From: Candidatus Omnitrophota bacterium
GTDB lineage: Bacteria; Omnitrophota; Gorgyraeia; 2-02-FULL-51-18
Assembly: GCA_016206805.1 (NCBI GenBank)
Contig: JACQQX010000016.1
Span: 13,256-77,255, forward strand
Length of the DNA: 64,000 nucleotides
Direction: 5' to 3'
The translations under genes and the position numbers were made by a program. Shown here piece by piece: positions 3,157 to 32,087 of this stretch (its first letter is position 1; each line of letters opens with the position of its first letter). The notes under the pieces were generated by a model. That model saw nothing but the letters and a program-made list of their open reading frames with translations, was not told where the DNA came from and searched no databases.

Positions 3157-3159
3157 GCC

Positions 3160-12959: not shown

Positions 12960-14818
12960 ACGGAGACCTCGAAAGCTTTTTCAACAAATCGCACCGCGCG
13001 GTCGGAGGCCTTTCCATCGTTAAGGCCCAAATAATATCCGGGATTTCTGCGGGAAAAGCGGCTTTGATACTGATCTCTACCCTCACGCGCGAGCCATGTT
13101 AATTCTGACCGTAAGCTTTCGGCGCTGGAAACAACTTTACAATAACCATCCTGAGCATAACGGTTGAGAATATCGCTTTGAAAAGGTGGCAGCGCGACAA
13201 AAAAAGTCGGCACCTTGCCAATCGCCGATTCAATCATAGCGGTAGACCAGTAAGCCACCAGCATCGCGTCCGACTCCAAAAGGATTTTAAAAAAATCATC
13301 GGAGTGCTTGGCTAGCGTCACATGTTTTCCCGGAGATTCTTTTTCAAGAAAACTTTTCCATAGCGGAATGGATTCATAGCTATGCGGTTTGATGATTAAA
13401 TCTACCGGTAAACCCTCGATGGCTTGAAAAATCGCCCGAATCACCGGGATTTGTATTCCCCCAAAACAGATGTTGTGGTTTCCCAGATAACCCTGCTGGT
13501 CCGGCGAATGGAGCCATAATCCTGTCGCGCAAAATAAAAGCTGAAGTCTTTCATTTTTTGGAGGGGGGTTGCCGCTTTTTTCTTCCAGCATCCGGATCAA
13601 ACGGTCGTACCGGGGCGTTCCCGTAACCTGGATGCCCTCGGGATTCCATCCTCTGGCGGCGTACATATCTTTTTCAAAATCCGAATGGACTAGTGTCGTG
13701 GAATGATTGAACGTCATACCTTCCGCAGGAACCGCAAAGCTCACCGCCAGGTTCGCGTGGGAAACACAAAAAATAGGCACGCCTTTTTTTCTCATGAAAG
13801 CTGCCAGAAAAGACCCCCGAAGCGCGTAATCCTCATCCAGCACCACCGCTCCTATGAAAAAATCCTTCAATAGCCTTTCATAGAACATTTGCTCACCTTC
13901 CAGACGACCCCAATAGGTCCTTGTTGTTGGCAGGATTTCATCCCTCACAAAATCTGAAAAATCATACCCCTGATACACAAAAAGACTTTCTGCGCGCGCC
14001 GCCTCAAAAGCGGCCGCCAGCTGATTTTCAACTGTCTTTGAAAAATTTCCTGAGGATGGCAAAAGATAAGGCATGCCTTTTCGCGCTGCGAATAAAAACT
14101 GTTCCCGGTGAAATGCAAAATCATAAATCGCCGCGGGCACCCTCCGGGACTTGAGTCCTTCCAATACGGGAGCCAAATGCCTCAACGAGCCATGCACCAG
14201 AACCAATGGACGTCTGCCTGGCTTCATGCAAAACCTACAAAAGACTTCCATCGCTTTTTTGACCCATTTGGCGATACGGGACTTGAATGACTTGTCCTGA
14301 AAAGGCATAACATGCTCCCCTGCCCCCTCCTCTTCAGCGATAATCTCCTGAAAAGGGATACCCGCAGAAACACACCGCGCTTTAAGAAAAGTGTTCAAAT
14401 GCGCGTTCCCTGAGAAAAAAGGATAATCCCTTTTAGCGCTGGAAATAAAAATAAGAACTTCCTCCGGCCGCTCCTTTTCCACGATTCTTTGGGCATAATA
14501 ATAATTTTTAACAGCAGGGATGAGTGTGTAAGAGAAAAAAAGCCGGATAACGGAGATCAAATTCACATCGGGGAAAATACGTCTTTCCTGGGACAAACGT
14601 ACCCATCGTCCTGTAACCAAACATCCCCAAGTGTTGATGTCGGCCCAAAGATCTTTCAAACTAAATTCATCCAAAACCTCAAAAGCAATGCCCTTGGCCT
14701 TAAAAAAACCATAAAACCGCTCATTGTCGCAATAAATTTTCCAGGCATCTAAACGGCCTAAGGTGGCTTGCTCAAATTTTCGGTACTGGGACTGGTTGGA
14801 TAAGACAACGGCTTTCAT
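12956..14818 (-). CDS. Uncharacterised 620-aa protein; possible GT-B-fold glycosyl/glycerophosphotransferase or capsule-synthesis (KpsC/KpsS/TagF-like) domain
   Basis: No clear signature. The C-terminal half (LLFCATGLWLHSP...IKPHSYESIP...VTGTPRYDRL...) resembles GT-B C-terminal Rossmann domains. Function uncertain. Confidence 0.3.
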   Translation of the reverse strand: MKAVVLSNQSQYRKFEQATLGRLDAWKIYCDNERFYGFFKAKGIAFEVLDEFSLKDLWADINTWGCLVTGRWVRLSQERRIFPDVNLISVIRLFFSYTLIPAVKNYYYAQRIVEKERPEEVLIFISSAKRDYPFFSGNAHLNTFLKARCVSAGIPFQEIIAEEEGAGEHVMPFQDKSFKSRIAKWVKKAMEVFCRFCMKPGRRPLVLVHGSLRHLAPVLEGLKSRRVPAAIYDFAFHREQFLFAARKGMPYLLPSSGNFSKTVENQLAAAFEAARAESLFVYQGYDFSDFVRDEILPTTRTYWGRLEGEQMFYERLLKDFFIGAVVLDEDYALRGSFLAAFMRKKGVPIFCVSHANLAVSFAVPAEGMTFNHSTTLVHSDFEKDMYAARGWNPEGIQVTGTPRYDRLIRMLEEKSGNPPPKNERLQLLFCATGLWLHSPDQQGYLGNHNICFGGIQIPVIRAIFQAIEGLPVDLIIKPHSYESIPLWKSFLEKESPGKHVTLAKHSDDFFKILLESDAMLVAYWSTAMIESAIGKVPTFFVALPPFQSDILNRYAQDGYCKVVSSAESLRSELTWLAREGRDQYQSRFSRRNPGYYLGLNDGKASDRAVRFVEKAFEVSV

Positions 14819-15477
14819 GAAAGCTCGAGGTAACGGGCGAGGGCTTCATAATCGGGCAGAAGCTTGGCCTGGGGAATCGAGAGACCCTTTCCCGGAGAAA
14901 GGGCCACAAAATCCACTCCCGCTAGATGGGCACCTTCCCAGTCAGCCATGGAGTCCCCAATCATCAGCACACGACCGGCAGAATAACCATTTTCCCTTAA
15001 AATACGCGAGATGATTTCATGTTTTTTCGCCGGCACTCCATAAACGGAATGAAAATATTTATCCATGCCTCTTTTGGAAATAATGCGTCGTAGCTCCCCT
15101 TCCGGCGTGCCCGAAGCCACATGAAGCGGTAAAAGCTGGTGATGGCCGGCTAAAAAAGCATCGGCGCCCGCCATCCACGGCGCACGAGCCACCTCATCCT
15201 CGACGAGCCTTGAAAAACGGCTACCCATCGCGGACTCTTCCGAAGGCGTTAGCTCTTTATTCAAAAAAACTTTATGGCAGTGCTGAAATTTCAAAAAACG
15301 TGATACGCCAAAATTTTGCAAATGATACTCAACGGCTTTTTGGGTGATGTCCCGCCCATAAGGCGCGTAAAGCTCTTCAAAAGCCTTCACTTTGATAGCC
15401 TCGGAGTCCACTAATACGCCGTCAAAATCAAAAATCAGCGCGTCATACTTCAAAGCGGTCATGCGGTTTTGAGCCAT
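14815..15477 (-). CDS. HAD-IA family hydrolase (beta-phosphoglucomutase/phosphatase-like)
   Basis: Motif I LIFDFDGVLVDSE (DxDG), a downstream MIGDSMADWEGAHLAG motif III/IV equivalent, and a cap helical domain. Confidence 0.75.
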   Translation of the reverse strand: MAQNRMTALKYDALIFDFDGVLVDSEAIKVKAFEELYAPYGRDITQKAVEYHLQNFGVSRFLKFQHCHKVFLNKELTPSEESAMGSRFSRLVEDEVARAPWMAGADAFLAGHHQLLPLHVASGTPEGELRRIISKRGMDKYFHSVYGVPAKKHEIISRILRENGYSAGRVLMIGDSMADWEGAHLAGVDFVALSPGKGLSIPQAKLLPDYEALARYLELS

Positions 15478-16478
15478 TTTTCATTCACACAATGAAAAGG
15501 TTTTTTGCCTTCCAAAACACGCTTGGCTTCCAGCGCCGCCTTGGAACGCAGCTCGGCGTCCGCTTCCACAGAAACAAATGCCGCGTGCGGCGTAATCACC
15601 AAGCGATGCGCTATCCACGCCTCACGCTTGCGCCATGCTTTAATCAACGGGTGTTTGTTATCGGCTGGTTCTATTGGCAGAACGTCCAGTCCCGCACCGC
15701 GTAAACACCCGGACTTGAGTGCCGCATGCAGCGCATCCAAATCCATCAGCGCACCGCGCGAAGTATTGATAAAAAGAGCGTCTTTTTTCATCTTAAAAAA
15801 AAAGGAAGCGTCTGCCATCCCCTTGGTTTCAGGAGTCAGCGGCACATGCATCGACACGGCATCCGCGGCAGACAATAACTCATCCAGTGATCGGCAGCGT
15901 TTGATCCCCAACGCTTTTTCCTGTCCGGGGCCGATATAAGGATCATAAAAAAGAACCTGCATGCCAAAAGCCTTGGCCCTCATTGCCACAGCCGTCCCGA
16001 TGGGCCCCAAACCAATAATCCCCAGTACTGAACCAGTAATCCGGTGCAATGTGCCAGCCGAATGCCAATTCCAATGGCTATTGGAAGCGCGAACATTTTC
16101 ACTGAACGCGTAAATCCCCCGCGCCAATGTCAGAAAAAGCGCCAGTGCGTGATCGGCCACGTCTTCGGTTCCATAATCCGGCACATTGCACACCCGGATA
16201 CCGCGCTTGCCGGCGGCGGCCAGATCAACACTATCGACACCGACACCCATCCGGACGATCACGCGGCAACGGTCCAGCTTTTCAATAACATCCGCCCTCA
16301 TGGGCATCCAATGCCACACCAGGATCGCATCCGCGCTTTTCCAAACCTTGTCTGAAATTTCCTCTGGCCGATGCGCGCAGGGCGTCATAATCCGGGCCTT
16401 TTTCCCAAAAATCCCCTGCTCGAGGCGGGCCGGCGCCTTTAAAAGATCAGGAATGAGAATGAACGGGTGTTTTGTCAT
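15459..16478 (-). CDS. D-isomer-specific 2-hydroxyacid dehydrogenase (NAD-binding; phosphoglycerate/glycerate dehydrogenase-like)
   Basis: NAD-binding GIIGLGPIGTAVAMRAKAFGMQVLFYDPY plus a catalytic domain with the R/E/H arrangement typical of the family. The start is placed at MTKHPFILI; the ORF could extend to 16556, overlapping the upstream gene. Confidence 0.7.
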   Translation of the reverse strand: MTKHPFILIPDLLKAPARLEQGIFGKKARIMTPCAHRPEEISDKVWKSADAILVWHWMPMRADVIEKLDRCRVIVRMGVGVDSVDLAAAGKRGIRVCNVPDYGTEDVADHALALFLTLARGIYAFSENVRASNSHWNWHSAGTLHRITGSVLGIIGLGPIGTAVAMRAKAFGMQVLFYDPYIGPGQEKALGIKRCRSLDELLSAADAVSMHVPLTPETKGMADASFFFKMKKDALFINTSRGALMDLDALHAALKSGCLRGAGLDVLPIEPADNKHPLIKAWRKREAWIAHRLVITPHAAFVSVEADAELRSKAALEAKRVLEGKKPFHCVNEKWLKTA

Positions 16479-17208
16479 AAGGCGTCTGTGTTTCGGTAAA
16501 ACCATTTTTTCTAAGCCAAAACTCCACTTGCGGCATCTGCCATTCATAATCCACATCTAAACCACCCCATTGCTCCAGCGGATGCACTTTGCGGCCAATC
16601 CACGGAAAAGGCGGCACACCATAATCAAAATCAAAACATTTCGGGCGCACTACGAAAGCGGAGCAGTCCGGGAAAAAAGTATCCCCCTGCGAATCGCGAT
16701 CGCAGGTTGCTGAGCTAAAGGACTCATGGGAAATAAAAGGCTGGAGCCTTCCATTCACGATTTGATGGGCACGCAGCGGGCTCCACATGTTGTAGCGGCT
16801 TACGGTCACGGCCGAGTCCAGATCCGGATTGGCGCGAAGCGCCTCTATTCCCTTATCGATAATCCCCGGCGTCACCGTCGCGCCATTGCAAAACAAAAGA
16901 ACCATCATCTCCACTTTTTCAGGCTTGTTGCGGTCAATAATGATGTCATAACCGTTCTTAAACGCGTCTTGAGAAAGCGCTTTGTTGGTGGCCAAATTCG
17001 GATCGCGCATGATGATCTCCGCGCCGTATTCCTTGCCGATGGCCGCAATCTCAGGCGAATCCGTCGATACATACACTTTGTCCACGAGCTTTGAATGTTT
17101 GGCGGCCTGGATGCAATACGACGAAAGCGGCCTGCCGACGATTTTGGTCAGGTTTTTATTTTTGAAACCGGTGCTCCCGGCCCTTCCGATAGTGAGCGCT
17201 GCTATCAT
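16447..17208 (-). CDS. Acylneuraminate cytidylyltransferase-family protein (CMP-NulO/CMP-sugar-acid synthetase-like) with C-terminal extension
   Basis: MIAALTIGRAGSTGFKNKNLTKIVGRPL...YVSTDSPEIAAIGKEYGAEII matches CTP_transf_3 (NeuA/KdsB-like). The C-terminal ~90 residues are extra. Confidence 0.7.
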   Translation of the reverse strand: MIAALTIGRAGSTGFKNKNLTKIVGRPLSSYCIQAAKHSKLVDKVYVSTDSPEIAAIGKEYGAEIIMRDPNLATNKALSQDAFKNGYDIIIDRNKPEKVEMMVLLFCNGATVTPGIIDKGIEALRANPDLDSAVTVSRYNMWSPLRAHQIVNGRLQPFISHESFSSATCDRDSQGDTFFPDCSAFVVRPKCFDFDYGVPPFPWIGRKVHPLEQWGGLDVDYEWQMPQVEFWLRKNGFTETQTPYDKTPVHSHS

Positions 17209-17843
17209 TTTTTTATCCTTTCTCGTTGAATGGAGCTGGAAAGCTCTCCAAGGCCTTCGATCGTCATGCGGACTTCATCTCCGGGTTTCACCAACGACTG
17301 ACGAGCGCCGGCCGGAGTTCCGGTAAGGACCAAGTCCCCCGGTTCGAGCGTAAAAAATCGAGTGATCAGGCTCAACGCCTGACTATCATTGAGAATACGG
17401 TTGGCCGTCGTGCTTTTTTGAGTGATGCGCTCATTGATGCGGGTCGATAGCGCGAGGTCTCGCGTGTCCAAATCCGTCGCTAAAAAGGGTCCGACCGGGC
17501 AAAATGTCTCAAGCCCTTTGGAGCGCGCCAAATGCCAGTCGCGGCCATGAATATTTTCAGCTGTCACGTCATTGGCAATCGTGTAGCCTAAAATATAATC
17601 CCGCGCGCGCGAAACCGGCACATGTCGGGCTCTTTTTTTAATCACGAATGCCAGCTCCACCTCCACCCAAACGGTGTCGATGCCCTGCGGAATACGAATC
17701 GGCTGACCCGACAGGATCACTCCGCGCGGAGATTTGAAAAAAATAAGCGGTTCATCAAATTTCTTTTTAGGACCGACCAGGTCTTTGTAATTATAGGCCA
17801 GCGCGATAACGTTCTTGGGTTGACGGAGTTTTAAGCGTTTCAT
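17205..17843 (-). CDS. Fumarylacetoacetate hydrolase (FAH) family protein (hydratase/decarboxylase/isomerase-type)
   Basis: Matches the FAH fold consensus (NVIALAYNYKDL...PLIFFKSPRGV...WVEVELAFVIKKRA...ILGYTIANDVTAENI...GLETFCPVGPFLAT) with metal-binding acidic residues. Confidence 0.7.
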   Translation of the reverse strand: MKRLKLRQPKNVIALAYNYKDLVGPKKKFDEPLIFFKSPRGVILSGQPIRIPQGIDTVWVEVELAFVIKKRARHVPVSRARDYILGYTIANDVTAENIHGRDWHLARSKGLETFCPVGPFLATDLDTRDLALSTRINERITQKSTTANRILNDSQALSLITRFFTLEPGDLVLTGTPAGARQSLVKPGDEVRMTIEGLGELSSSIQRERIKK

Positions 17844-18871
17844 AGGAATGCGATCAAATCCGCCACGCGACGGCTATAGCCCCATTCGTTGTCATACCAT
17901 AGAACTAGCTTTACATTATTTTTTGAATTGGCACGGGTCCAGCGCCCATCCACCACCAGCGATTGGTCTATTCCCAGAAAATCCACCGAAACCAGACTTT
18001 CTTCCTGGTAACCGATAATGCGACGATTCGTGCGCGCATGCCGCTTAAAAAGCTCGTTGATGCGTTTAGCGGTGACCGGCTTGGCCAGCGTCAGCGTCAG
18101 GTCAGAAGCCGAAACAGCGCCTGTCGGCACGCGGAAGGAAATGACATTTAATTTCTCATTTAAATTGGGGAGCACGCGTCCCAAAGCCTGTCCAACGGTG
18201 GTCTCTTTGGGAATTAAGCTATAGCTGCTGGCCCGTCCAAGCGCGAAGTCTTGCCAAAAATGCCCTGGGCTCGAAACAGAACGAACAGAGCCATCCAACA
18301 GATTTTGATAAGAAAGCCAGGGATGAAGCGTTGTGATATACCCGTGGTCAATGCCATAGGCCTCATCCAGGATTTTTAGGACAGGTGCCGCCGCATTCAC
18401 ATCACAAATGCTGGCGCTGACCACGTGGTGCTTGGCCGAGTTATACTGTTTTTCGTTCACACCAAAGATAAGCGTAAAATCCACGCCGTTTTTTGGAGAA
18501 TGCGTGATGATCACTTTACGCGCCGCCTGGTCTTTCAGAAGTTTGCGGCCGGAAAGCACATTTTGATAAACGCCGCTGGCATCCACAACAACATCGACGC
18601 CATATTTTTTCCAAGGCACTCTCGCGATATCCTGCTCAGAATGAAATGAAACCTTTTGACCATCCACCGTCATGGCCATATTGCCATTGGCCGCGGCTAC
18701 TTTTCCTTTAAAGCGGCCATGGATGGAGTCGTATTTTAAAAGATAGGCGTGGTTTTCCACATTGGGGTCCAGGTCATTGACCGCGACGATGCGGAAACTT
18801 TTTTCTTTTTGATTGATCCTGAAAAGGACCCGGCCGATGCGGCCAAATCCATTGAGTCCTACGCGTATCAT
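17840..18871 (-). CDS. Glyceraldehyde-3-phosphate dehydrogenase-family paralog
   Basis: N-terminal Rossmann IRVGLNGFGRIGRVLFR...IVAVND and the catalytic Cys in VVSASICDVNAAAPVLKIL (equivalent to the S-C-T-T-N-C region). Start at MIRVGL forms an ATGA overlap with the upstream gene. Confidence 0.7.
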   Translation of the reverse strand: MIRVGLNGFGRIGRVLFRINQKEKSFRIVAVNDLDPNVENHAYLLKYDSIHGRFKGKVAAANGNMAMTVDGQKVSFHSEQDIARVPWKKYGVDVVVDASGVYQNVLSGRKLLKDQAARKVIITHSPKNGVDFTLIFGVNEKQYNSAKHHVVSASICDVNAAAPVLKILDEAYGIDHGYITTLHPWLSYQNLLDGSVRSVSSPGHFWQDFALGRASSYSLIPKETTVGQALGRVLPNLNEKLNVISFRVPTGAVSASDLTLTLAKPVTAKRINELFKRHARTNRRIIGYQEESLVSVDFLGIDQSLVVDGRWTRANSKNNVKLVLWYDNEWGYSRRVADLIAFL

Positions 18872-19848
18872 AATCTCTCCTTGGCGTATTGATCGCAAAG
18901 TCTATCCAGCATTTTGCGGTATTGAGGCCTGACTTTTTCTTTTTTGAGAATAGCTTCCATACGCTTGGCTTGTTCTTCCAGAAAAGTACTGGGAAAAACG
19001 CGTGGCACATTGGCTTCGCTCATGATTTGACGGGTGCGCGCCGTTGGCAGGGTTTTCAGGAGTTTTTGGATACGGTTTAAAAATAGCGCCGGGCCTTGGG
19101 CAAACCGCTCGAACGGAACCCGTAGGAATTTCTTTTTATCGGCATTGGAAAGCCGTCGGTAACGAGCCTGAAAACTTTTGTCAAAATGGTCCATCACGCG
19201 GATGGCCTGTTCCATGCGTCCCAAGGACGCGTATTCTTTAGCCCAACCCGCCGCAAACCACGGCACCACCTTGCCGCCCGACTGGCAGCATAGCTGAAAT
19301 TCACGCGGATCATTTCCAATGCGTTTATCCCATTGACCTTCATACCAGCTTTCGACAAGCCACAACGGATGGCGCTCCATGAGAATATAAAGCTTAAGAC
19401 GGTCCTTAAAAGCCCCGAACAAAATATCCGAAGCCCCAAAAATATAATGCGTCATGAGAAATAGAATTGATTTTTTCTTTTGGATCTGTCGGACAGTGGC
19501 ATCTCCGGCCGGAGAAGCGGCTTTGAGCCTGTAAACTTCTTCTAAACCGTTTTTAGCTGCGCCACTGTCATCGTCTTTTCTAAAATTGGTGTTGCGGCCG
19601 ATCGACTGATGATAAAGGTCAATGTCGGAAAAAAGCTGAAGCATCATCGCGCAGGCTTTTTTATCGATTTTTCCAAGCAGATGAAGCGTTGAAAGCGACT
19701 CAAAAAGATAATCCAGACACCAGAGCTCCGCCCGCTCCATCGAGGAAAGAACCGGCGCCAGAAGCGTTTTGCCGGAACGGGAAAATCCATCGATGATGAC
19801 GATATTCTTGGCCAGCCGCTGGGGCCGTATCATCTCAAGAGACGACAT
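18868..19848 (-). CDS. Putative sulfotransferase-family protein (P-loop PAPS-binding-like)
   Basis: IVIIDGFSRSGKTLLAP resembles the 5'-PSB loop (G-x-PRSGTTLL) of Sulfotransfer_3-type bacterial sulfotransferases. 326 aa. No other family motif recognised, so the call is tentative. Confidence 0.4.
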   Translation of the reverse strand: MSSLEMIRPQRLAKNIVIIDGFSRSGKTLLAPVLSSMERAELWCLDYLFESLSTLHLLGKIDKKACAMMLQLFSDIDLYHQSIGRNTNFRKDDDSGAAKNGLEEVYRLKAASPAGDATVRQIQKKKSILFLMTHYIFGASDILFGAFKDRLKLYILMERHPLWLVESWYEGQWDKRIGNDPREFQLCCQSGGKVVPWFAAGWAKEYASLGRMEQAIRVMDHFDKSFQARYRRLSNADKKKFLRVPFERFAQGPALFLNRIQKLLKTLPTARTRQIMSEANVPRVFPSTFLEEQAKRMEAILKKEKVRPQYRKMLDRLCDQYAKERL

Positions 19849-21037
19849 GTTTCAGTACCCATTGGTTTTCGGTTTTCTCCCAAACATTGGAGATCGCGCG
19901 GTAACGGTCCATCACTTCCCAGAAAAAAGGCTCTTCGATATCCATGTAATCCAAAAACCATTGAAAGTATTTTTGTGGGAACTCGCCGTCATAACGGCGC
20001 GTGAGACGCACACCCTCTTCTCGCGTCAGATGATGCCGGCGGATATCCTGCTGGGCGTCGCGTGAGGCGCGACACATGCCAAATTTCATATAACTCAAAT
20101 ACCAGTGAAAACCATCAGCCTTGTCGTCCAGGCTGACATATTTATTGTAAGTGCCTTCCGAGCGGCCATCGTCATTGCACTCGAACCCGCAATATTGGAC
20201 CGCGTAATAAAAATTCTCCTGCGGCGTCCACTTTTGATAATAAGAATACCAGTGGCCTTCCACTCCCAGCTTCCGGATTTCTTCGACGGGAGGCGCTTTG
20301 TACCATTCGAGTGCCTTGCCCACTTCACTTTCTTTGAGAATCCCCCTCTTCAATCCCACGGCCGCGATATCATCCACCGTGGCGCCCTTAAACTGCTCCA
20401 CAATCCAGTCTTCCGGACCCTGTTTGGGCAGATTTTTAAATTTTTCCTGTCCGCCGTATTCCAACTCCCCATTTTCACCGTAAAAAATGAGGCTCAAACC
20501 AAACCGCCGGGCCATGTGATAAGCCCATGATTTTTGGCCGTAAGTGAATGGCTCCCAAGCGTCACCCTTGAGCTCAAACGCCAGCTTGGTCAGCTTGCGG
20601 TGAATGGAGCCATCCGGCTGACCCAAGAGATTGCTGAATCCTGAGTTGATAAAGTTCTGGAGATTTTTATAGCCGATGTCGGTGTATTCAAACGGCGTCC
20701 ATGTCACGCATAAAGGGTGCATGCCCCAGCGGACCTTGAGCTGATGCGCTACAAAAACGCTGTCCTTGCCGCCGGAGCCCGGCACGATGCAGTCAAAACT
20801 GCCGTCTTTAGAACGATGTTTCTCCAGAAGTTGCTCAAGCTCCGATTCCCGTTTTTTCCAATTCACCGCATGGTCTTTTTCGTAAGCCCATAAACAGGCC
20901 GAGCAAATCCCGTCTTCCGTGAAGCGCGTACGCGGCCGCTGATTAGAAACTACACAGTTGCGGCAAAAACGCACCTCTTTGGGAAGCGAGTCCAATTGCT
21001 TATCGAGGATGAGTGTGGGTTTCTGCGCTGGGTTCAT
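19835..21037 (-). CDS. N-acetyl sugar amidotransferase (WbuX/PseA/PtmG family, PP-loop ATP pyrophosphatase)
   Basis: N-terminal Zn-ribbon CRNCVVSNQRP...CSAC, PP-loop SGGKDS (CIVPGSGGKDSVF), and the conserved C-terminal region of LPS-biosynthesis amidotransferases. Confidence 0.8.
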   Translation of the reverse strand: MNPAQKPTLILDKQLDSLPKEVRFCRNCVVSNQRPRTRFTEDGICSACLWAYEKDHAVNWKKRESELEQLLEKHRSKDGSFDCIVPGSGGKDSVFVAHQLKVRWGMHPLCVTWTPFEYTDIGYKNLQNFINSGFSNLLGQPDGSIHRKLTKLAFELKGDAWEPFTYGQKSWAYHMARRFGLSLIFYGENGELEYGGQEKFKNLPKQGPEDWIVEQFKGATVDDIAAVGLKRGILKESEVGKALEWYKAPPVEEIRKLGVEGHWYSYYQKWTPQENFYYAVQYCGFECNDDGRSEGTYNKYVSLDDKADGFHWYLSYMKFGMCRASRDAQQDIRRHHLTREEGVRLTRRYDGEFPQKYFQWFLDYMDIEEPFFWEVMDRYRAISNVWEKTENQWVLKHVVS

Positions 21038-21690
21038 TTTTTAGAAATAAAATTTTTAAGGATGCGTAAACCCATTTCCCCGCTGCGTTCCGGATGAAAT
21101 TGGCAACCCTGAATATTATCTTGTAACAACACCGAGCAAAAACGGTCCTGCCCATATTCGGTTTGAGCCAACCAGGCCTGAGCGCTCTCCGGATAAACGC
21201 AATAGGAGTGAACAAAATACATGCAAGGTGCTTCATCCAGCCCATTCAAAAGCGTATCGCGCCAATTCCCGCCCTTGGAAGCGAGGGTCAGCCGATTCCA
21301 GCCGATTTGCGGGATTTTATAAGACTGCCCATTGTTGGGCGCCTGGAAACGACGCACTTTTCCGGCAATCAAATTTAAACCATCGTGAGAACCGCCCTCT
21401 TCGGAATGCGTCATCAAAAGCTGCATGCCCAGGCAAATCCCAAGAACGGGACAGCCCTCAGCCGCACGCTTGCGGATCGCGCTCACCAAGCCGCGCTCAT
21501 TCAAATACCGCATGCCCGCCTCAAAAGCACCCACGCCGGGCAGAATCAGTTTTTTAGCGGATAAAATATCTTCCGGTTTTCCGGAGATCACCGAAGACGC
21601 TCCTAAAAGATCAAGGGCCCGCTGGACATTAAAAAGATTGCCCACGCCGTAATCGATGATCACCGCGTCCGGGCTTTTAGCGTTTGGCAT
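21034..21690 (-). CDS. Imidazole glycerol phosphate synthase HisH-like glutamine amidotransferase (WbuY-type)
   Basis: AVIIDYGVGNLFNVQRAL...ILPGVGAF and a class I GATase Cys-His-Glu context (GICLGMQLL, H..E). The ORF may start at 21723. Confidence 0.8.
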   Translation of the reverse strand: MPNAKSPDAVIIDYGVGNLFNVQRALDLLGASSVISGKPEDILSAKKLILPGVGAFEAGMRYLNERGLVSAIRKRAAEGCPVLGICLGMQLLMTHSEEGGSHDGLNLIAGKVRRFQAPNNGQSYKIPQIGWNRLTLASKGGNWRDTLLNGLDEAPCMYFVHSYCVYPESAQAWLAQTEYGQDRFCSVLLQDNIQGCQFHPERSGEMGLRILKNFISKK

Positions 21691-22582
21691 AAGCCAGTCC
21701 CCGCACCGGAACGCCGCATTCATCCAGATAATTTTTAAGCTCAGGCAAACCCACGTGATTCACCATAATATTTTTGTAACCGCCGTAACCGTCTTTCAAA
21801 AAATCAATATTGCCGGAGTCGATATCTTCCCCCATCCGCAGCCGAGACTCATCAAAAGACATCCATCGCCGGTTGTCGCCAGGTGCAGTCGCATAATAAT
21901 AATGAAAAACCGACGCCGCGCTGACCGCGTCAGCCGCGCCCTGTGCAATGACTGAAAGAAAATCTTCCTTCTTTCCGGCTCCGCCTCCGGCAATCACCGG
22001 CACCGGCACCGCCTTCGCAACTTTAGACGTAAAGTCGACATCAAACCCATTGCCCATGCCATCGCGACGGATAGAGGTCAAAAGAATTTCTCCGGCGCCC
22101 AGGTCTACCGCGCGCCGCGCCCAGTCAAAAGCATCAATACCGGTCGGTTGACGGCCATAGTCGGTCCACACTTCATAACCGCCATGCGTTGTTTGATAAA
22201 ACTCAATGCTGGCAACGATACATTGCGAACCAAAAATCTGAGCGGCTTCTTTTAAAAGATTGGGATTTTCGATGGCGGCGGTATTGATCGCGACTTTGTC
22301 GGCGCCCGCGCGAAGGATTTCCCGGATATCTTCAACACTGCGGATGCCGCCGGCGACTGTCATCGGGATAAAAATCTTGGCGGCGGTTTTACGGATGTAT
22401 TCCAAAAGCGAATTGCGCCGGTAAAGACTGGCCACCGTATCATAAAAAATAAGTTCGTCCGCCCCTTCGCGGTAATAAATCTCGGCCAGCGCGTCCGGAG
22501 TCCCCAAAACACGATTGCCGTCAAACTGTATTCCTTTGACGACATTAGGCCCTTTAATGTCCAGGCGCGGGATGATTCTTAC
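21677..22582 (-). CDS. HisF-like cyclase subunit (WbuZ-type) with C-terminal extension
   Basis: MVRIIPRLDIKGPNVVKGIQFDG...PDALAEIYYREGADELIFYD...VAGGIRS are HisF (beta/alpha)8 barrel motifs. The ORF could extend to 22615. Confidence 0.8.
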   Translation of the reverse strand, partial: VRIIPRLDIKGPNVVKGIQFDGNRVLGTPDALAEIYYREGADELIFYDTVASLYRRNSLLEYIRKTAAKIFIPMTVAGGIRSVEDIREILRAGADKVAINTAAIENPNLLKEAAQIFGSQCIVASIEFYQTTHGGYEVWTDYGRQPTGIDAFDWARRAVDLGAGEILLTSIRRDGMGNGFDVDFTSKVAKAVPVPVIAGGGAGKKEDFLSVIAQGAADAVSAASVFHYYYATAPGDNRRWMSFDESRLRMGEDIDSGNIDFLKDGYGGYKNIMVNHVGLPELKNYLDECGVPVRGLAYAKR

Positions 22583-23379
22583 CATACGCTCAAACCCCCA
22601 TCGACCACCAGGCACTGGCCCGTCACGTAACTGGAAGCGTCCGATGCCAAGAAAATAAGCGCGCCGGTCATTTCATTGGGCTTAGCCATTCTCCCCATCG
22701 GCACGCGTCGCGAATAATTTTGAATAAACGTTTTATCCTGCCCGTTTTCCACGCCACCCGGGACAATGGCATTGACACGAATATTTTTGGACGCCCAATC
22801 GGCGGCAAGATGCTTGGTCAGGCCAATCACACCGGCTTTGGACGCCGTATACACCGCCGGCGCGCTTAACTCCCGGGGTTTAGGATAAATACGCTGGTCG
22901 GGCGCCATGAGACCATAAATCGAAGCGGTTTGGATGATGCTGCCGCCTTGATGCCTTGCCATCCGGCCGCCCACGGTTTGCGCGACCAAAAACATGCCGT
23001 CCAAATTAACAGCCATGACTTCCCGCCAGGACGAAAGATCCATGCCCGCCGCGTTTTTGTAAAAATCGGAAGAATGCTTAAGTTTTGTAGCGGCGTTATT
23101 ATGCAAAATAGAAATGGGCCCTAGCGTCTTCTCCGCCAGGGAAACCATTCGCCGGACGCTTTGGGGATCGGAAACGTCACAACCGATGCCGACGGCTTTT
23201 ACCTCGTATTTTCCGGCAATTTCCAGCGCGAATTTTTTACAAACAGCCTCATCAACGTCCACGATGGCCACATTCGCCCCGTAATCCGCCAACGCCCGGC
23301 AAAAATAACGCCCTAAAAACCCCGAGCCGCCGGTCACCACGGCGTTCTTTTTTGAAAGGTCAAACAGACTGGGTTTCAT
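22579..23379 (-). CDS. SDR-family oxidoreductase (PtmA-like)
   Basis: NAVVTGGSGFLGRYF (TGxxxGxG), NNAA, and Y-x3-K in ASKAGVIGLTK. Start at MKPSLFDL. Confidence 0.75.
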   Translation of the reverse strand: MKPSLFDLSKKNAVVTGGSGFLGRYFCRALADYGANVAIVDVDEAVCKKFALEIAGKYEVKAVGIGCDVSDPQSVRRMVSLAEKTLGPISILHNNAATKLKHSSDFYKNAAGMDLSSWREVMAVNLDGMFLVAQTVGGRMARHQGGSIIQTASIYGLMAPDQRIYPKPRELSAPAVYTASKAGVIGLTKHLAADWASKNIRVNAIVPGGVENGQDKTFIQNYSRRVPMGRMAKPNEMTGALIFLASDASSYVTGQCLVVDGGLSVW

Positions 23380-23647
23380 GTTTATCCACCTTAAAATAAA
23401 CGCGCAAGTACATGGCGATACACGCCGCCAGGAAAATGAGAGCAAGGACGTACTTTACCTGGAGCGGCCGCTGGTCGATCAAAAGAGCATACCAGAGCGC
23501 AATAATGTTTCCGATAAAAGAAATCAGGAGCAGCCGGAAACTCAGCCCGGCCACCGTTTTTGTCTTAATCGTTTTCATGATTTGAGGCCAGTAGCAGGCG
23601 GTGAAAAGAACGGTGGCCGTCCAACCCAAAATGTCGGCGAGGGTCAT
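23360..23647 (-). CDS. Small PQ-loop (SemiSWEET/MtN3-like) membrane protein
   Basis: 95 aa with three hydrophobic helices and a PQ motif in helix 1 (FTACYWPQIMKTIKTKTVAGLS). Confidence 0.45.
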   Translation of the reverse strand: MTLADILGWTATVLFTACYWPQIMKTIKTKTVAGLSFRLLLISFIGNIIALWYALLIDQRPLQVKYVLALIFLAACIAMYLRVYFKVDKHETQSV

Positions 23648-24351
23648 GATTTTTTTTCTCCTTTTCTCGTCATCAAAAAGCCAACGATTTCAAAATCCAG
23701 CTCACTATCGATGTCCAAAGACCGCTCGGGCGGCATTTCATAAAACCGGGTGGCCTTGTTGAAAAGCGGGTCTTCGCGGAAAAGATTTTTCCGGTTCCAC
23801 ACGTAAATCGAGGCGTTCATGTCATAACACCGGGGGGAATCCTGCCTTCGCAAAACCGGCGCCGCCGGCGGTTTTGAAAGTTTCGGCGCGCCATTCTTGC
23901 CCAGCTCGACAAGGTTAAAATAAGGGGAACGCCGCGACGCGGCGCCAGTGATCACGTTGGCCGCGTCGCTTTTTTCGAGAAGGCTTACAGCTTTCAAGAT
24001 ATCGTCGACATGCCGCAAAGGAGAGGTGGGGTCCAGGTCGCATACTGTTTCAAAAATAAAACCCGTACTTTTCTCGACCGCTGACACGCAATGACGGATG
24101 GCCGGCAGCTTGGGAGCGTGGTCCGTGGCAAGTTTGGCCGGCCGCCGGATCAGAAAATCAGCCCCCCATTTCCTGCCGGCTTCGAGGATGGCAGCCGAGT
24201 CACTGGTGACCGCGATAGCGGTAAAAAGTCCCGAGGCTTTTGCCTGGGAAATCGTATGGGCGATCAGGGGTTTACCGGCCAGTGGACGGATATTTTTATT
24301 TTTTACGCCTTTGGATCCGCCGCGCGCGCAAATCACGCAAAGCCTTTTCAT
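23644..24351 (-). CDS. Acylneuraminate cytidylyltransferase (CMP-nonulosonic acid synthetase, NeuA/LegF/PseF-like)
   Basis: MKRLCVICARGGSKGVKNKNIRPLAGKPLIAHTI...IAVTSDSAAILEAGRKWGADFLIRRP matches CTP_transf_3. Confidence 0.75.
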   Translation of the reverse strand: MKRLCVICARGGSKGVKNKNIRPLAGKPLIAHTISQAKASGLFTAIAVTSDSAAILEAGRKWGADFLIRRPAKLATDHAPKLPAIRHCVSAVEKSTGFIFETVCDLDPTSPLRHVDDILKAVSLLEKSDAANVITGAASRRSPYFNLVELGKNGAPKLSKPPAAPVLRRQDSPRCYDMNASIYVWNRKNLFREDPLFNKATRFYEMPPERSLDIDSELDFEIVGFLMTRKGEKKS

Positions 24352-25256
24352 CGCTTCACCCAGCTTTTCTTTTTAGCCGCTTTTTCCGCGGCAGCAATGA
24401 GGCTCATGACTTCCATCCCCTCACTGAGCCTGGCCACATCGTGGAATTTTCCTTTGAGCGCCGATTCATGCTGCCACCGGTAAGTGGCGTCGCGATCGAT
24501 TTCAAAACTTTCAATCTCTCCATCCACCCGAAGCGTTCCGCCGATCAAATCCACCTTATAACTGTGCCGGTCCGTGTTGATAAAAACTTCACGGCGCGGA
24601 TTTCTATCGATATAATTGATCTGAAGTGAAACTGCCCGGCAGCGGCGCGTGGTCATCAAAAGACAAAACACATCGTCGCTAGTGATTTTGAGCTTGCTGA
24701 AATGTCCGCCAATAGCCGCCACCGAAGTCCAGCCACCCAATAACCAGTTCAGATAATCCAGCTCATGACTCAAATCCCTCAATACCCCGCCGCCGGCTTT
24801 TTTATCCGCCGAATAACCGCGGCGATAATCCGCTTGCCGCCAGGACGGCAGGAAACTGCCGGCATATACCTGCGTGGAAATAATAGTTTCCTTCTTCAGT
24901 AAGACGCTCAGTTTCTGCAGCGCCGGATGAAAACGCAAATTATAAGCCACGCCGATATATTTAAAATGATTCACGGGGAATGAGGCTGCCTGCGCGAAAA
25001 CCGGCTTCTCAATCAAAAGCGCGCCTTTAAAACCGCTCTGTTTTAATTCCAGCACCGTCTTTCGATGGTCACTTGTCTTATTGGCAATCACCACATAATC
25101 CGGTTTTTCTTTTGAAAGTGCCGCCGCCAGCGTTTTGTAGCTGGGTTTAAAATCAATATTCCGCTTGGACACCACCGCTATCGGACATCCCAATGCCTTT
25201 AAAATCCTCGCGTGCCGCGAACCAATGGAACCATAACCGATGACAAGGGTCTTCAT
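24348..25256 (-). CDS. Gfo/Idh/MocA-family NAD(P)-dependent oxidoreductase (PtmF-like)
   Basis: MKTLVIGYGSIGSRHARIL Rossmann N-terminus and the EKP motif (LLIEKPV) characteristic of Gfo/Idh/MocA. Confidence 0.75.
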   Translation of the reverse strand: MKTLVIGYGSIGSRHARILKALGCPIAVVSKRNIDFKPSYKTLAAALSKEKPDYVVIANKTSDHRKTVLELKQSGFKGALLIEKPVFAQAASFPVNHFKYIGVAYNLRFHPALQKLSVLLKKETIISTQVYAGSFLPSWRQADYRRGYSADKKAGGGVLRDLSHELDYLNWLLGGWTSVAAIGGHFSKLKITSDDVFCLLMTTRRCRAVSLQINYIDRNPRREVFINTDRHSYKVDLIGGTLRVDGEIESFEIDRDATYRWQHESALKGKFHDVARLSEGMEVMSLIAAAEKAAKKKSWVKR

Positions 25257-27596: not shown

Positions 27597-28207
27597 TGGT
27601 AAACTCCGAGGATTTTTTTCTTGGCCGGAACGTCCCGCAAAACCACCGACCCCGCGCCCACCGTCACTTCTGGGCCGATAGTCAGCCGGTCCGCGATCGA
27701 AGCATTCACGCCGATAAAAGAAAGCGCGCCAATAGACGTGCGCCCGGCAACAACCGCCTGGGGCGCCAAATGCGAAAAATCCCCAAGGCTCGACTCATGG
27801 TCCAGCGAAGCGCCGGTATTGACGATACAGCCTTTTCCCACGATGGCTTCCGCGCCAAGGGTAGCTCCCAAACAAACGACACTACCCTCCCCTATTTCGG
27901 CGCTTTTTTCAACCAGCGCGCTGGGATGCACAAGGCTGGGCGTCCTAAAACCATGCCGCTTCAAAAACTCAAACGCTTTTTGACGCTTGGCATTATCTCC
28001 CAGGGCCAGGTAAACGTTTCCCGCTTTATTTTTAAATTTCAGAATAGATTCAAACCGGCCAAGCACGGGCGATCCGGCGATTTTCTCCGCTTTATGCGGA
28101 TCGTAAGAATCGTCAAAGAACCCTAATACCGTAATTTTTTGAGCCTTCAAAATCGAGGCGAGAACGCGCGCATGCCCTCCGGCCCCAAACACCACGGCTT
28201 TTTTCAT
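27593..28207 (-). CDS. NeuD/PglD/LegH-family sugar N-acetyltransferase (N-terminal Rossmann-like + left-handed beta-helix)
   Basis: MKKAVVFGAGGHARVLASIL N-terminus followed by hexapeptide repeats (IGEGSVV, GKGCIVNTGASL, SIGALSFIGVNASI). Confidence 0.75.
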   Translation of the reverse strand: MKKAVVFGAGGHARVLASILKAQKITVLGFFDDSYDPHKAEKIAGSPVLGRFESILKFKNKAGNVYLALGDNAKRQKAFEFLKRHGFRTPSLVHPSALVEKSAEIGEGSVVCLGATLGAEAIVGKGCIVNTGASLDHESSLGDFSHLAPQAVVAGRTSIGALSFIGVNASIADRLTIGPEVTVGAGSVVLRDVPAKKKILGVYH

Positions 28208-32081: not shown

Positions 32082-32087
32082 AGGCTC

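What the first reader, a model, noticed from the sequence alone, without database searches (positions are those of the whole stretch)
18868..19848. Putative sulfotransferase in the locus
The 326-aa protein carries a P-loop-like GFSRSGKTLLAP segment. This resembles the 5'-phosphosulfate-binding loop of bacterial Sulfotransfer_3 enzymes. Together with the APS-kinase-like domain 8 kb away, it raises the possibility of a sulfated bacterial polysaccharide, which is uncommon outside a few lineages. The assignment is weak because only one motif is recognisable.
Basis: inference. Interest (0 to 1): 0.55.

Follow-up and report, generated by a model that had tools for sequence, protein, structure and literature searches.

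The report
Atypical sulfotransferase-like enzyme in sugar cluster
This gene encodes a previously unnamed, sulfotransferase-shaped enzyme inside a bacterial gene cluster for sialic-acid-like sugars; it most likely adds sulfate to that sugar, and its relatives may add a rare phosphoramidate group.

Summary
The ORF is real: minus strand, 18868-19848, 326 aa (or 321 aa from ATG 19833), translationally coupled to its neighbours, with GFSRSGKTLLAP at residues 21-32. HMM evidence is sub-threshold (Sulfotransfer_3, 18.5 bits against a cutoff of 27). A high-confidence model (pLDDT 94.8) matches only sulfotransferases in its top 37 PDB hits. The protein has the RxG PSB loop (R24-S25-G26), a 3'-phosphate motif (R159...S167) and a conserved His134. 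It also has an invariant Walker-A lysine (K27), which is atypical for sulfotransferases.

It belongs to an unannotated family of at least 1,575 cluster representatives, found almost always in legionaminic-type nonulosonic-acid clusters. Members that keep R24 and S167 co-occur with APS-kinase-like genes (9/12 against 4/32 loci). These belong either to PAPS cassettes or to Campylobacter-type phosphoramidate-donor cassettes.

The window's PK-APS-kinase fusion is a canonical-type APS kinase. It is syntenic with PK-ATP-sulfurylase plus APS kinase in a related Omnitrophica contig. The window itself has no ATP sulfurylase.

Best reading (about 0.5): a PAPS-dependent sulfotransferase that decorates the nonulosonic acid.

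The parts
18868..19848 (-). Target gene: 326-aa (or 321-aa from ATG 19833) sulfotransferase-fold protein of an unannotated family
   Evidence: ORF. AF2 model pLDDT 94.8, pTM 0.92. Foldseek top 37 hits are all sulfotransferases. Family of 1,575 representatives.
19753..19788 (-). P-loop / PSB-like loop GFSRSGKTLLAP (residues 21-32): R24-S25-G26 'RxG' plus Walker-A K27-T28, between strand 15-21 and helix 27-35
   Evidence: K27 100% and G26 97% conserved. R24 is present in only some clades.
19564..19596 (-). Invariant loop R85-N-T-N88-F-R90-K-D-D93-D-S95 (family signature GRNTNFRxxDxS); inferred acceptor-binding loop
   Evidence: R85 99%, N88 99%, R90 95%, D93 99%, S/T95 98%. The role is inference.
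19447..19449 (-). His134 (T-H-Y), directly after strand 128-132; candidate catalytic base
   Evidence: 96% conserved. Position after a beta-strand. Aligns to 'wHDS' of a Sulfotransfer_3 family (a weak alignment).
19348..19374 (-). 3'-phosphate-binding-type strand-turn-helix: R159-H-P-L-W-L-V-E-S167 (RxxxDxxxS type, with D replaced by W here)
   Evidence: R159 99% and P161 99% conserved. hmmsearch aligns it to CurM-ST 'VRHPYSVIES' and OLS-ST 'VRHPYAVIES'. S167 tracks with APSK-like genes.
19000..19113 (-). C-terminal nucleotide-site elements: V-P-F246-E247-R-F-A-Q-G-P253 (the 'YEDLvxxP'-like region hit by PF13469) and P282-R283
   Evidence: Pfam Sulfotransfer_3 partial hit over residues 211-264. 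Alignment to CurM, TPST1 and 3RNL. F246 89%, E247 90%, R283 91% conserved.
9931..11580 (-). PK-barrel / APS-kinase fusion (549-aa maximal ORF; 512 aa as called in NCBI): makes PAPS from APS; the inferred cofactor supply
   Evidence: Pfam PK 3.7e-64 plus APS_kinase 9.8e-41. TIGR00455 154.1 bits against 138.7. Syntenic with PK-Sat plus APSK in L090. The Sat-less fusion recurs at 71% identity.
19835..22615 (-). WbuX-type N-acetyl-sugar amidotransferase (19835-21037) with HisH-like (21034-21723) and HisF-like (21677-22615) subunits, immediately upstream
   Evidence: TIGR03573 323 bits against 203. Pfam GATase and His_biosynth. A frequent but not obligatory neighbour of the family.
22579..29223 (-). 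Legionaminic-type nonulosonic-acid genes: SDR (PtmA-like), CMP-transferase, GFO/IDH/MocA (PtmF-like), CBS-DegT aminotransferase, AP_endonuc_2 TIM barrel, PglD-like acetyltransferase, NeuB synthase. These give the inferred acceptor sugar.
   Evidence: Pfam. The same gene set flanks family members in 37 of 43 de-duplicated long loci.
14815..18898 (-). Downstream block: GAPDH-like, FAA-hydrolase, second CTP_transf_3 cytidylyltransferase, 2-hydroxyacid dehydrogenase, HAD phosphatase. It builds an unknown small-acid decoration or donor and is the basis of a rival explanation.
   Evidence: Pfam and NCBIfam. The block is variable among relatives but always ends in a CTP_transf_3 gene.
9182..14818 (-). 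620-aa unknown protein (weak TIGR04396 'surface carbohydrate biosynthesis' match), Wzx-type flippase and CDP-alcohol phosphotransferase, flanking the PK-APSK gene
   Evidence: No PDB sequence match for the 620-aa protein.

Best explanation
The gene encodes a cytoplasmic, sulfotransferase-fold group transferase of a large, unnamed family. In this locus it most likely uses PAPS to sulfate a hydroxyl of the legionaminic-type nonulosonic acid made by the same operon, either as the CMP-sugar or once the sugar is on the glycan. The proposed mechanism is inferred by analogy with solved sulfotransferases. The 5'-phosphosulfate of PAPS sits in the strand-loop-helix G21-T28, contacted by R24 and the unusual Walker-A K27. 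The 3'-phosphate is held by R159 and S167 of the strand-turn-helix, and by R283. H134 deprotonates the acceptor hydroxyl for in-line attack on sulfur. The invariant R85/N88/R90/D93/S95 loop holds the acidic sugar. PAPS comes from the PK-APS-kinase fusion 8 kb downstream in the same operon. APS must come from an ATP sulfurylase encoded elsewhere in the genome. What is shown: the ORF, fold, motifs, family, context and co-occurrence statistics. What is inferred: the donor, the acceptor and the residue roles.
For: Fold: the AF2 model has pLDDT 94.8. Foldseek PDB ranks 1-37 are all sulfotransferases (TPST1/2, CurM and OLS ST domains, Stf1, Stf9, 3-OSTs, SULT2A1), with E from 2e-6 to 1e-2. The first kinase appears at rank 38. 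Motifs: R24-S25-G26 is the 'RxG' PSB type described for NodH/Sulfotransfer_3 (PMC11625862). R159...S167 has RxxxDxxxS spacing and aligns to the CurM and OLS ST 'RHPY.VIES' motif. H134 is 96% conserved. Pfam: Sulfotransfer_3 is the top hit, though sub-threshold, for 12 of 29 members, and Sulfotransfer_1 for 5 of 29. Cofactor supply: the APSK domain passes apsK (154 bits against 139), unlike the phosphoramidate-type kinases (120-135 bits). Its PK barrel is 60-67% identical to the PK domain of hundreds of PK-ATP-sulfurylase and PK-Sat-APSK fusions, and one relative is a PK-Sulfotransfer_3 fusion. In the syntenic Omnitrophica contig the same position holds PK-Sat plus APSK. Co-occurrence: family members with both R/K24 and S/T167 have an APSK-like gene in the locus in 9 of 12 cases, against 4 of 32 without the pair (Fisher p=1.6e-4). 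The target has the full signature. In the PAPS-type loci L015, L017 and L048 the family gene is the only ORF with PSB plus R[DNH]P motifs. In the whole 64-kb window the target is the only sulfotransferase-like ORF.
Against: No HMM passes its threshold, and hhalign against a true Sulfotransfer_3 family gives only 1.6% probability. The invariant Walker-A Lys replaces the Thr of canonical PSB loops, which to my knowledge is unknown in sulfotransferases. There is no ATP sulfurylase in 64 kb. Relative to its syntenic cousin the window has lost the Sat domain, a 620-aa gene and a paralogue that also carries the R24/S167 signature. Most members of the target's own clade have no APSK within 10 kb (1 of 10). 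In L036 the family gene sits with the phosphoramidate cassette while a separate PF13469 protein sits with the PAPS cassette. I did not Pfam-scan the ORFs at 33-64 kb. Sulfated Leg/Pse sugars have not been reported in prokaryotes in the library searched.
Confidence: 0.5

Rival explanations
1. The protein is a nucleotide-dependent group transferase whose donor is not PAPS. Instead the donor would be a CMP- or CDP-activated small acid or phospho-acid made by the adjacent GAPDH-like/FAA-hydrolase/CTP_transf_3/2-hydroxyacid-DH/HAD block, possibly 3'-phosphorylated by the APSK domain. The protein would decorate the nonulosonic acid with that group. The PK-APSK would then serve that donor, or an undetected sulfotransferase.
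For: Family genes are very often directly adjacent to a nucleotidyltransferase. One form is the contiguous trio of family gene, HpcH/HpaI and CTP_transf_3 in L019, L020, L024, L058, L063 and L077. The other is a Cj1416-like NTP_transferase in L011, L016, L035, L049, L075, L076 and L083-85. The acid-building block varies while the family gene and the cytidylyltransferase stay. Most clade-A loci have no PAPS genes within 10 kb. The target's stop overlaps the start of this block.
Against: The window's APSK is the most canonical apsK-like of all those scored, and is syntenic with a Sat-linked APSK. The target carries the R24/S167 signature that tracks with APSK-like genes, whereas trio-type members mostly lack it: residue 24 is C or G, or residue 167 is E or Q. 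No sulfotransferase-fold enzyme is known to use CMP-acid donors (own knowledge).
Confidence: 0.2
2. The protein is a phosphoramidate (or other phosphoryl-X) transferase using a 3'-phospho-CDP-type donor. I infer this role for relatives that sit inside Cj1415-Cj1418-like cassettes.
For: In L010 (Leptospira ilyithenensis), L012, L013, L014, L036, L041 and L086 a family member is embedded among four cassette genes. These are a Gln-kinase-like gene (PRK05849 equivalog, 822 bits), a Peptidase_C26, an NTP_transferase and a PRK05541-type APSK-like kinase. That pathway makes CDP-phosphoramidate 3'-phosphate, a PAPS analogue (PMC11800397). All catalytic-site residues are shared between those members and the target.
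Against: The window contains none of the Gln-kinase, C26 or NTP_transferase genes. Its kinase is apsK-type, not PRK05541-type (89.6 bits against a cutoff of 127).
Confidence: 0.12
3. The protein is an ATP-dependent small-molecule or sugar kinase that retains the ancestral P-loop chemistry. For example, it could phosphorylate a precursor that the HAD phosphatase later dephosphorylates.
For: The Walker-A motif G-x4-G-K-[ST] is strict, with K27 100% conserved. There are weak NCBIfam and Pfam hits to P-loop kinases (PRK06547 E=0.005; cytidylate kinase and CPT in a few members). A HAD phosphatase is present in the locus. A family member occurs in a phage with no glycan genes.
Against: Kinases appear only from rank 38 in the fold search, with E-values 3-4 orders of magnitude worse. 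A His, not an acidic Mg-binding residue, follows the strand that corresponds to Walker B. The RxP...S strand-turn-helix is a sulfotransferase hallmark. There is a strong statistical link to genes that make 3'-phosphorylated donors.
Confidence: 0.1
4. The protein is a relic of a decaying sulfation module. On this view sulfation was lost when the ATP sulfurylase was deleted, and the gene has no current role.
For: Relative to L007/L090 the window lacks the Sat domain, a 620-aa gene and the paralogue.
Against: The ORF is intact, translationally coupled and of normal composition. All conserved residues are retained. The Sat-less PK-APSK fusion is conserved at 71% identity with the same synteny in another sample. 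The closest homologues, at 64-69% identity, are also intact.
Confidence: 0.03

Closest known systems
Bacterial Sulfotransfer_3-type PAPS sulfotransferases (CurM and OLS ST domains 4GBM/4GOX, NodH, Stf0/Stf1/Stf9) and tyrosylprotein sulfotransferases
   Same: Same overall fold. PSB loop of the RxG type. An 'RHP....S' 3'-phosphate motif almost identical to CurM ST. A (F/Y)E..h...P motif. A His after the neighbouring strand.
   Different: Below every Pfam threshold. An invariant Walker-A Lys where those enzymes have Thr. The PSB Arg is not conserved family-wide. An extra invariant GRNTNFRxxDxS loop. The context is nonulosonic-acid clusters, not polyketide, Nod-factor, glycolipid or peptide substrates.
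Campylobacter jejuni O-methyl-phosphoramidate pathway (Cj1415-Cj1418 donor synthesis; Cj1421/Cj1422 transferases)
   Same: Relatives of the target are embedded in the same four-gene donor cassette. The donor is a 3'-phosphorylated nucleotide analogous to PAPS (PMC11800397).
   Different: The window lacks this cassette. The genetically defined C. jejuni transferases are about 600-aa proteins whose relation to this family I could not test. The context here is nonulosonic acid, not capsule heptose or GalfNAc.
PAPS-synthesis fusions (Sat-APSK PAPS synthases; the PK-Sat and PK-Sat-APSK fusions found here)
   Same: The window's PK-APSK shares its PK barrel (60-67% identity) and its APSK domain (63.5% identity to the L090 APSK) with these.
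   Different: The ATP-sulfurylase module is missing, so only the APS-to-PAPS step, plus presumably ATP regeneration from PEP, is encoded locally.
Vertebrate sialate O-sulfotransferases (WSCD1/WSCD2; own knowledge, not tested here)
   Same: A possible functional analogue: PAPS-dependent sulfation of a nonulosonic acid.
   Different: Eukaryotic Golgi membrane proteins of the Sulfotransfer_1 type. No detectable sequence relationship was examined.

Membership tests
PAPS-dependent sulfotransferase superfamily (PF00685 / PF03567 / PF13469) | Alpha/beta fold with a central parallel beta-sheet that positions a strand-loop-helix (PSB) and a strand-turn-helix (3'-PB) (PMC11625862) | tested here: met
   AF2 model with pLDDT 94.8: strand 15-21, loop, helix 27-35; strand 151-158, turn, helix 161-171. 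The top 37 Foldseek PDB hits are all sulfotransferases, with TM 0.41-0.55.
PAPS-dependent sulfotransferase superfamily (PF00685 / PF03567 / PF13469) | PSB loop with a catalytic Lys, or Arg (the 'RxG' of NodH/Stf0-type enzymes) | tested here: met
   R24-S25-G26 is present in the target and aligns with the TPST1 'PRSGTT' loop (a non-significant stretch). It is not conserved family-wide (G75/R54 of 169). Its presence tracks with APSK-like genes.
PAPS-dependent sulfotransferase superfamily (PF00685 / PF03567 / PF13469) | 3'-PB motif: Arg at the strand end plus Ser on the following helix (RxxxDxxxS) | tested here: met
   R159-HPL-W163-LVE-S167 has correct spacing, with D replaced by W here. D is the commonest residue at position 163 in the family. 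The motif aligns to CurM and OLS ST 'RHPY(S/A)VIES'.
PAPS-dependent sulfotransferase superfamily (PF00685 / PF03567 / PF13469) | Catalytic base (His or Glu) near the acceptor site | tested here: inconclusive
PAPS-dependent sulfotransferase superfamily (PF00685 / PF03567 / PF13469) | Score above the Pfam gathering threshold for a sulfotransferase model | tested here: not met
   PF13469 gives 18.5 bits against 27, E=0.0026, over residues 211-264 only. 12 of 29 members hit PF13469 and 5 of 29 hit PF00685, all sub-threshold.
PAPS-dependent sulfotransferase superfamily (PF00685 / PF03567 / PF13469) | Profile-profile homology to a bona fide member family | tested here: inconclusive
   hhalign of A1 against A3 (the 428-aa PF13469 family) gives probability 1.6% and E=0.032. 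The alignment is nevertheless co-linear over 229 columns and matches the P-loop, DxSG, His, Arg and (F/Y)E motifs.
PAPS-dependent sulfotransferase superfamily (PF00685 / PF03567 / PF13469) | PAPS available: APS kinase and ATP sulfurylase | tested here: inconclusive
   APS kinase is present in the operon. ATP sulfurylase is absent from the 64-kb window but present at the syntenic position in L090. The rest of the genome was not available.
PAPS-dependent sulfotransferase superfamily (PF00685 / PF03567 / PF13469) | PAPS binding and sulfuryl transfer | not testable with these tools
   Needs biochemistry.
P-loop (NMP-kinase-like) small-molecule kinases | Walker-A G-x4-G-K-[ST] | tested here: met
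   G21-FSRS-G26-K27-T28. K27 is 100% conserved, and residue 28 is S/T in 75% of members.
P-loop (NMP-kinase-like) small-molecule kinases | Closest structural and sequence relatives are kinases; an acidic Mg-binding residue lies after the adjacent strand | tested here: not met
   The first kinase (AK3) is at rank 38 with E=9.5e-3. Kinase HMM hits have E of 0.005 or worse, far below cutoffs. His134 occupies the post-strand position.
MeOPN-type phosphoramidate modification system (Cj1415-Cj1418 plus transferase) | Gln kinase, gamma-glutamyl (C26) hydrolase, phosphoramidate cytidylyltransferase and a Cj1415-type kinase in the locus | tested here: not met
   None of the first three is in the window by tblastn. 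The window's kinase scores 89.6 bits on PRK05541 against a cutoff of 127. The cassette is present next to relatives in L010, L012-14, L036, L041 and L086.

The most novel reading that the evidence does not exclude
This unnamed family (at least 1,575 representatives at 50% identity) is a general class of '3'-phosphonucleotide-donor' decorating enzymes for nonulosonic acids. Some members, including the window's, would make sulfated legionaminic-type sugars, which are not described in prokaryotes. Others would be the missing biochemical class of phosphoramidate transferases that use 3'-phospho-CDP-amidate. That would extend O-methyl-phosphoramidate-like chemistry from Campylobacter capsules to Leptospira and many uncultured phyla.
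Probability: 0.35. Interest if true: 0.78.

Novelty: new variant of a known kind. Interest (0 to 1): 0.6.

Why it matters
Chemical surveys find both nonulosonic acids and sulfated glycoconjugates widely in environmental biofilm matrices, yet known sulfotransferases are rarely found in the producers' genomes (PMC10483923). A large family that current HMM libraries miss, sitting inside nonulosonic-acid clusters next to PAPS-making genes, is a concrete candidate for that gap.

The same family's tight linkage to the Cj1415-Cj1418-type cassette gives a testable candidate for the enzyme class that uses 3'-phospho-CDP-amidate. That step is defined only genetically in Campylobacter. One carrier, Leptospira ilyithenensis, is cultured.

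The family also shows a sulfotransferase fold that keeps the ancestral kinase Walker-A lysine, which bears on how sulfotransferases evolved from P-loop kinases. Finally, the PK-barrel fusions to ATP sulfurylase, APS kinase and a sulfotransferase point to an undescribed PEP-driven PAPS supply.

Tried and rejected

2. phmmer against PDB with the single sequence found nothing.

3. My early conclusion from five contexts, that the family is not linked to APS kinase, was wrong. It came from sampling one clade and from the +-10 kb limit, and it was corrected.

4. The search for related loci with the 29-sequence alignment failed for lack of a conserved stretch; a tighter alignment worked.

5. Viral contigs, INPHARED phages and PLSDB plasmids gave no relatives, although one metagenomic member lies in a phage-like contig.

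It has no PDB sequence match, so I could not exclude a hidden domain there.

7. I tested whether the window holds a homologue of the PF13469 sulfotransferase that accompanies the closest PK/Sat/APSK set (L036). It does not.

8. The first motif regexes were too strict or too loose and are used only as crude support.

9. The Taylor & Raushel 2018 paper (PMC5938747) is not held. Pathway facts are cited from PMC11800397 and PMC6429109.

The NCBIfam scores are the actual test.

Full report
OBSERVATION. The ORF is present at the stated coordinates but on the minus strand: 326 aa with an ATG start. The plus-strand frame is closed. GFSRSGKTLLAP occupies residues 21-32. A second ATG at 19833 (Met6) gives the 321-aa form found in the databases (P0001). 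The upstream WbuX gene stops at or just before the start. The target's TGA overlaps the ATG of the next gene (TTATGA), and an AAGGAG sequence lies upstream of it. The gene is therefore an internal, translationally coupled member of a long minus-strand operon. Its base composition is ordinary (GC 0.485 against 0.505 for the window).

SEQUENCE-LEVEL TESTS. Pfam gives only a sub-threshold Sulfotransfer_3 hit: 18.5 bits against a gathering score of 27, E=0.0026. The hit covers residues 211-264 and does not include the P-loop. NCBIfam gives only noise-level kinase hits, and PDB sequences give nothing. Among 29 close homologues, all labelled 'hypothetical' and none with a precomputed Pfam domain, 12 touch PF13469 and 5 touch PF00685, always below threshold. 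A family profile against PDB sequences ranks CurM ST first (E=0.012). It aligns 'lyilvvRhPlwlveew' with CurM 'KYIYLVRHPYSVIESF', and 'fipFEkfaadPekyl' with 'IRYEDLVKKPQQVL'. hhalign against a bona fide PF13469 family is statistically inconclusive (probability 1.6%). It is nevertheless co-linear across the P-loop, a DxSG loop, the His, the Arg and the (F/Y)E motif.

STRUCTURE. AlphaFold2 with the family alignment gives pLDDT 94.8 and pTM 0.92. Foldseek against the PDB returns sulfotransferases only for ranks 1-37: TPST1/2, the CurM and OLS ST domains, Stf1, Stf9, 3-OSTs and cytosolic SULTs, with E from 2e-6 upward and TM 0.41-0.55. The first kinase (AK3) is at rank 38. The secondary-structure elements match the architecture given as defining in PMC11625862. 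These are strand 15-21, loop, helix 27-35 (PSB), and strand 151-158, R159-H-P turn, helix 161-171 carrying S167 (3'-PB, RxxxDxxxS spacing). His134 directly follows strand 128-132.

THE FAMILY. An exhaustive profile search finds 1,575 representatives at 50% identity with E<=1e-3, of which 617 have E<=1e-30. All are about 320-350 aa. Across 169 of them the conservation is: K27 100%, G26 97%, R85 99%, N88 99%, R90 95%, D93 99%, S/T95 98%, H134 96%, R159 99%, P161 99%, E247 90% and R283 91%. Two features depart from canonical sulfotransferases. First, the loop is a strict Walker-A motif with Lys where TPST and SULT enzymes have Thr. Second, the canonical PSB Arg/Lys position (24) and the 3'-PB Ser position (167) are conserved only in some clades. 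This is a new, HMM-invisible branch of the sulfotransferase fold that keeps a kinase-like lysine.

CONTEXT IN THE WINDOW. Upstream lies a legionaminic-type nonulosonic-acid pathway: NeuB, a PglD-like acetyltransferase, CBS-DegT, a PtmF-like GFO, a CMP-transferase and a PtmA-like SDR. It also includes a WbuX/HisH/HisF acetamidino-forming trio. Downstream lie a GAPDH-like gene, an FAA hydrolase, a second CTP_transf_3, a 2-hydroxyacid dehydrogenase, a HAD phosphatase, a 620-aa unknown protein, a flippase, the PK-APS-kinase fusion, a CDP-alcohol phosphotransferase and glycosyltransferases. No ATP sulfurylase is present. tblastn with two Sat proteins finds nothing, and neither do Sat or CysN motif searches. 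No other sulfotransferase-like ORF is present. This was checked with custom HMMs of the family and of a PF13469 family, and with motif sweeps over all 64 kb.

CONTEXT OF RELATIVES. I collected 90 loci. Family genes lie almost always in Leg-type clusters: 37 of 43 de-duplicated loci with at least 8 kb of flank. They usually sit at the junction between the sugar/amidotransferase genes and a 'donor' block. Four kinds of block occur.
(a) PAPS cassettes, with ATP sulfurylase, APS kinase and pyruvate kinase: L015, L017, L048.
(b) Cassettes matching C. jejuni Cj1415-Cj1418. These have a PPDK-like Gln kinase (an equivalog-level PRK05849 match), a Peptidase_C26, an NTP_transferase and a PRK05541-type kinase. 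They occur in L010 (Leptospira ilyithenensis), L012, L013, L014, L036, L041 and L086. That pathway makes CDP-phosphoramidate 3'-phosphate (PMC11800397).
(c) An NTP_transferase plus an APSK-like gene only: L011, L016, L049.
(d) An HpcH/HpaI gene plus CTP_transf_3, or other acid-building genes ending in a CTP_transf_3, without a kinase.

L036 is a natural experiment. There the family gene sits with the phosphoramidate cassette and a methyltransferase. A separate 428-aa PF13469 protein sits with a PK-Sat fusion and an APSK.

THE KINASE PARTNER. The window's APSK domain is the most canonical of all those scored: TIGR00455 154 bits against a cutoff of 139, and PRK05541 only 90. The phosphoramidate-type kinases show the reverse pattern. 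Its PK barrel is 60-67% identical to the PK domain of hundreds of PK-Sat fusions and PK-Sat-APSK triple fusions, and one relative is a PK-Sulfotransfer_3 fusion inside another nonulosonic-acid cluster. In the syntenic Omnitrophica contig (L007/L090) the same slot holds PK-Sat (721 aa) plus APSK (183 aa). The window's fusion equals PK residues 1-332 joined directly to the APSK, at 66% and 63.5% identity respectively. The Sat-less fusion recurs at 71% identity with the same synteny in another sample, and the window's copy is seen in independent assemblies. It is therefore a stable gene. The operon encodes the APS-to-PAPS step but must import APS.

SIGNATURE TEST. I classified each family member by whether it has both R/K at position 24 and S/T at position 167. 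Among de-duplicated loci with at least 8 kb of flank, 9 of 12 signature-positive members have an APSK-like gene in the locus. Only 4 of 32 signature-negative members do (odds ratio 21, Fisher p=1.6e-4). One apparent exception, the L007 paralogue, does have PK-Sat plus APSK on its contig (p=2e-5 if recoded). The loci are not phylogenetically independent, so the p-value is indicative only. The target and its two closest relatives (64-69% identity) carry the full signature. The L007 'orthologue' (41% identity, while its neighbours are 58-84% identical) does not.

INTERPRETATION. The fold, the motifs, the in-operon canonical APS kinase of PAPS-cassette ancestry, the signature statistics and the absence of any other candidate make a PAPS-dependent sulfotransferase acting on the nonulosonic acid the best single explanation (about 0.5).

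The main reservations are as follows. The HMM and HH evidence is sub-threshold. The Walker-A lysine is atypical. ATP sulfurylase is missing. The window appears to have lost several genes relative to its cousin. Most of the target's own clade has no PAPS genes nearby. Finally, the family plainly uses other donor cassettes elsewhere.

The rivals are a transferase for a CMP/CDP-activated acid made by the adjacent block (0.2), a phosphoramidate-type transferase (0.12, since the cassette is absent here), a kinase (0.1) and a relic (0.03).

NOVELTY. The family has no Pfam, NCBIfam or PDB representative. I found no paper linking sulfate or phosphoramidate to Pse/Leg sugars in prokaryotes. I therefore file it as a new variant of a known kind, the sulfotransferase fold. 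Its donor range, if confirmed, would be new.

Noticed in passing
window 9931-11580 (-); L090 10001-12733; L036 8599-11237; L091 8001-10169: A dedicated pyruvate-kinase-barrel subfamily is fused to sulfate-activation enzymes in several permutations: PK-Sat (hundreds of examples), PK-Sat-APSK, PK-APSK (this window) and PK-Sulfotransfer_3. This suggests a PEP-driven PAPS supply. The window's version has cleanly lost the Sat module relative to its syntenic relative.
   Followed up: partly
L010 4884-14248 (Leptospira ilyithenensis NZ_RQHV01000061); also L012, L013, L014, L036, L041, L086: A complete Cj1415-Cj1418-like phosphoramidate-donor cassette, often with a methyltransferase, sits inside nonulosonic-acid clusters of Leptospira and MAGs from several phyla. 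A member of the target's family is always with it. I found no paper reporting this chemistry outside Campylobacter capsules.
   Followed up: partly
L021 10001-10987 (ENA ERZ27247789 k141_825422): A family member (P0023, 39% identical to the target) lies in a phage-like contig with Terminase_3, a P22-type portal, ParB_N, HNH, a PAPS_reduct/DUF3440 protein and an Acb2/Tad1-like hairpin protein. No glycan genes lie within 10 kb. Scans of IMG/VR and INPHARED found no further phage copies.
   Followed up: partly
window 14815-18898 (-); L019 10047-11563; L020, L024, L058, L063, L077: Downstream of the family gene there is always a variable 'small-acid' block ending in a second CTP_transf_3 cytidylyltransferase. 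Here the block is GAPDH-like/FAA hydrolase/2-hydroxyacid DH/HAD. Elsewhere it is a tight trio of family gene, HpcH/HpaI and CTP_transf_3, or HMGL-like aldolases and B12-radical-SAM enzymes. The product is unknown.
   Followed up: partly
L007 8983-9966 and 10001-10966: The syntenic Omnitrophica relative has two tandem paralogues of the family, 24-28% identical to each other and to the target. Only the first carries the R24/S167 signature. The window has a single copy that combines clade-A overall similarity with that signature. It is far more diverged from the L007 copy (41%) than the flanking genes are (58-84%).
   Followed up: partly
window 29567-33464 (-): Upstream of NeuB lie an AlgX/SGNH-like protein (474 aa), a 382-aa protein with no family hit (weak lipase-like PDB matches) and an MBOAT protein. 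This looks like an AlgI/AlgJ/AlgX-style glycan O-acetylation module.
   Followed up: no
window 2425-4668 (-) and 25253-27596 (-): Other unusual components of the cluster are a B12-binding radical-SAM enzyme next to a class-I methyltransferase, a CBS-domain/DegT aminotransferase fusion, and an AP_endonuc_2 (xylose-isomerase-like TIM barrel) gene between the aminotransferase and the acetyltransferase.
   Followed up: no
L033/L088 11049-16539; L049 6050-6928: In some family loci an ATP sulfurylase or APSK-like gene is next to an ABC transporter with a 'phosphonate-binding' periplasmic protein. This may be a dedicated anion (sulfate or phosphite/phosphonate) uptake system for the decoration pathway.
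   Followed up: no
They were screened only with two custom sulfotransferase-family HMMs and with motif searches, all negative.
   Followed up: no
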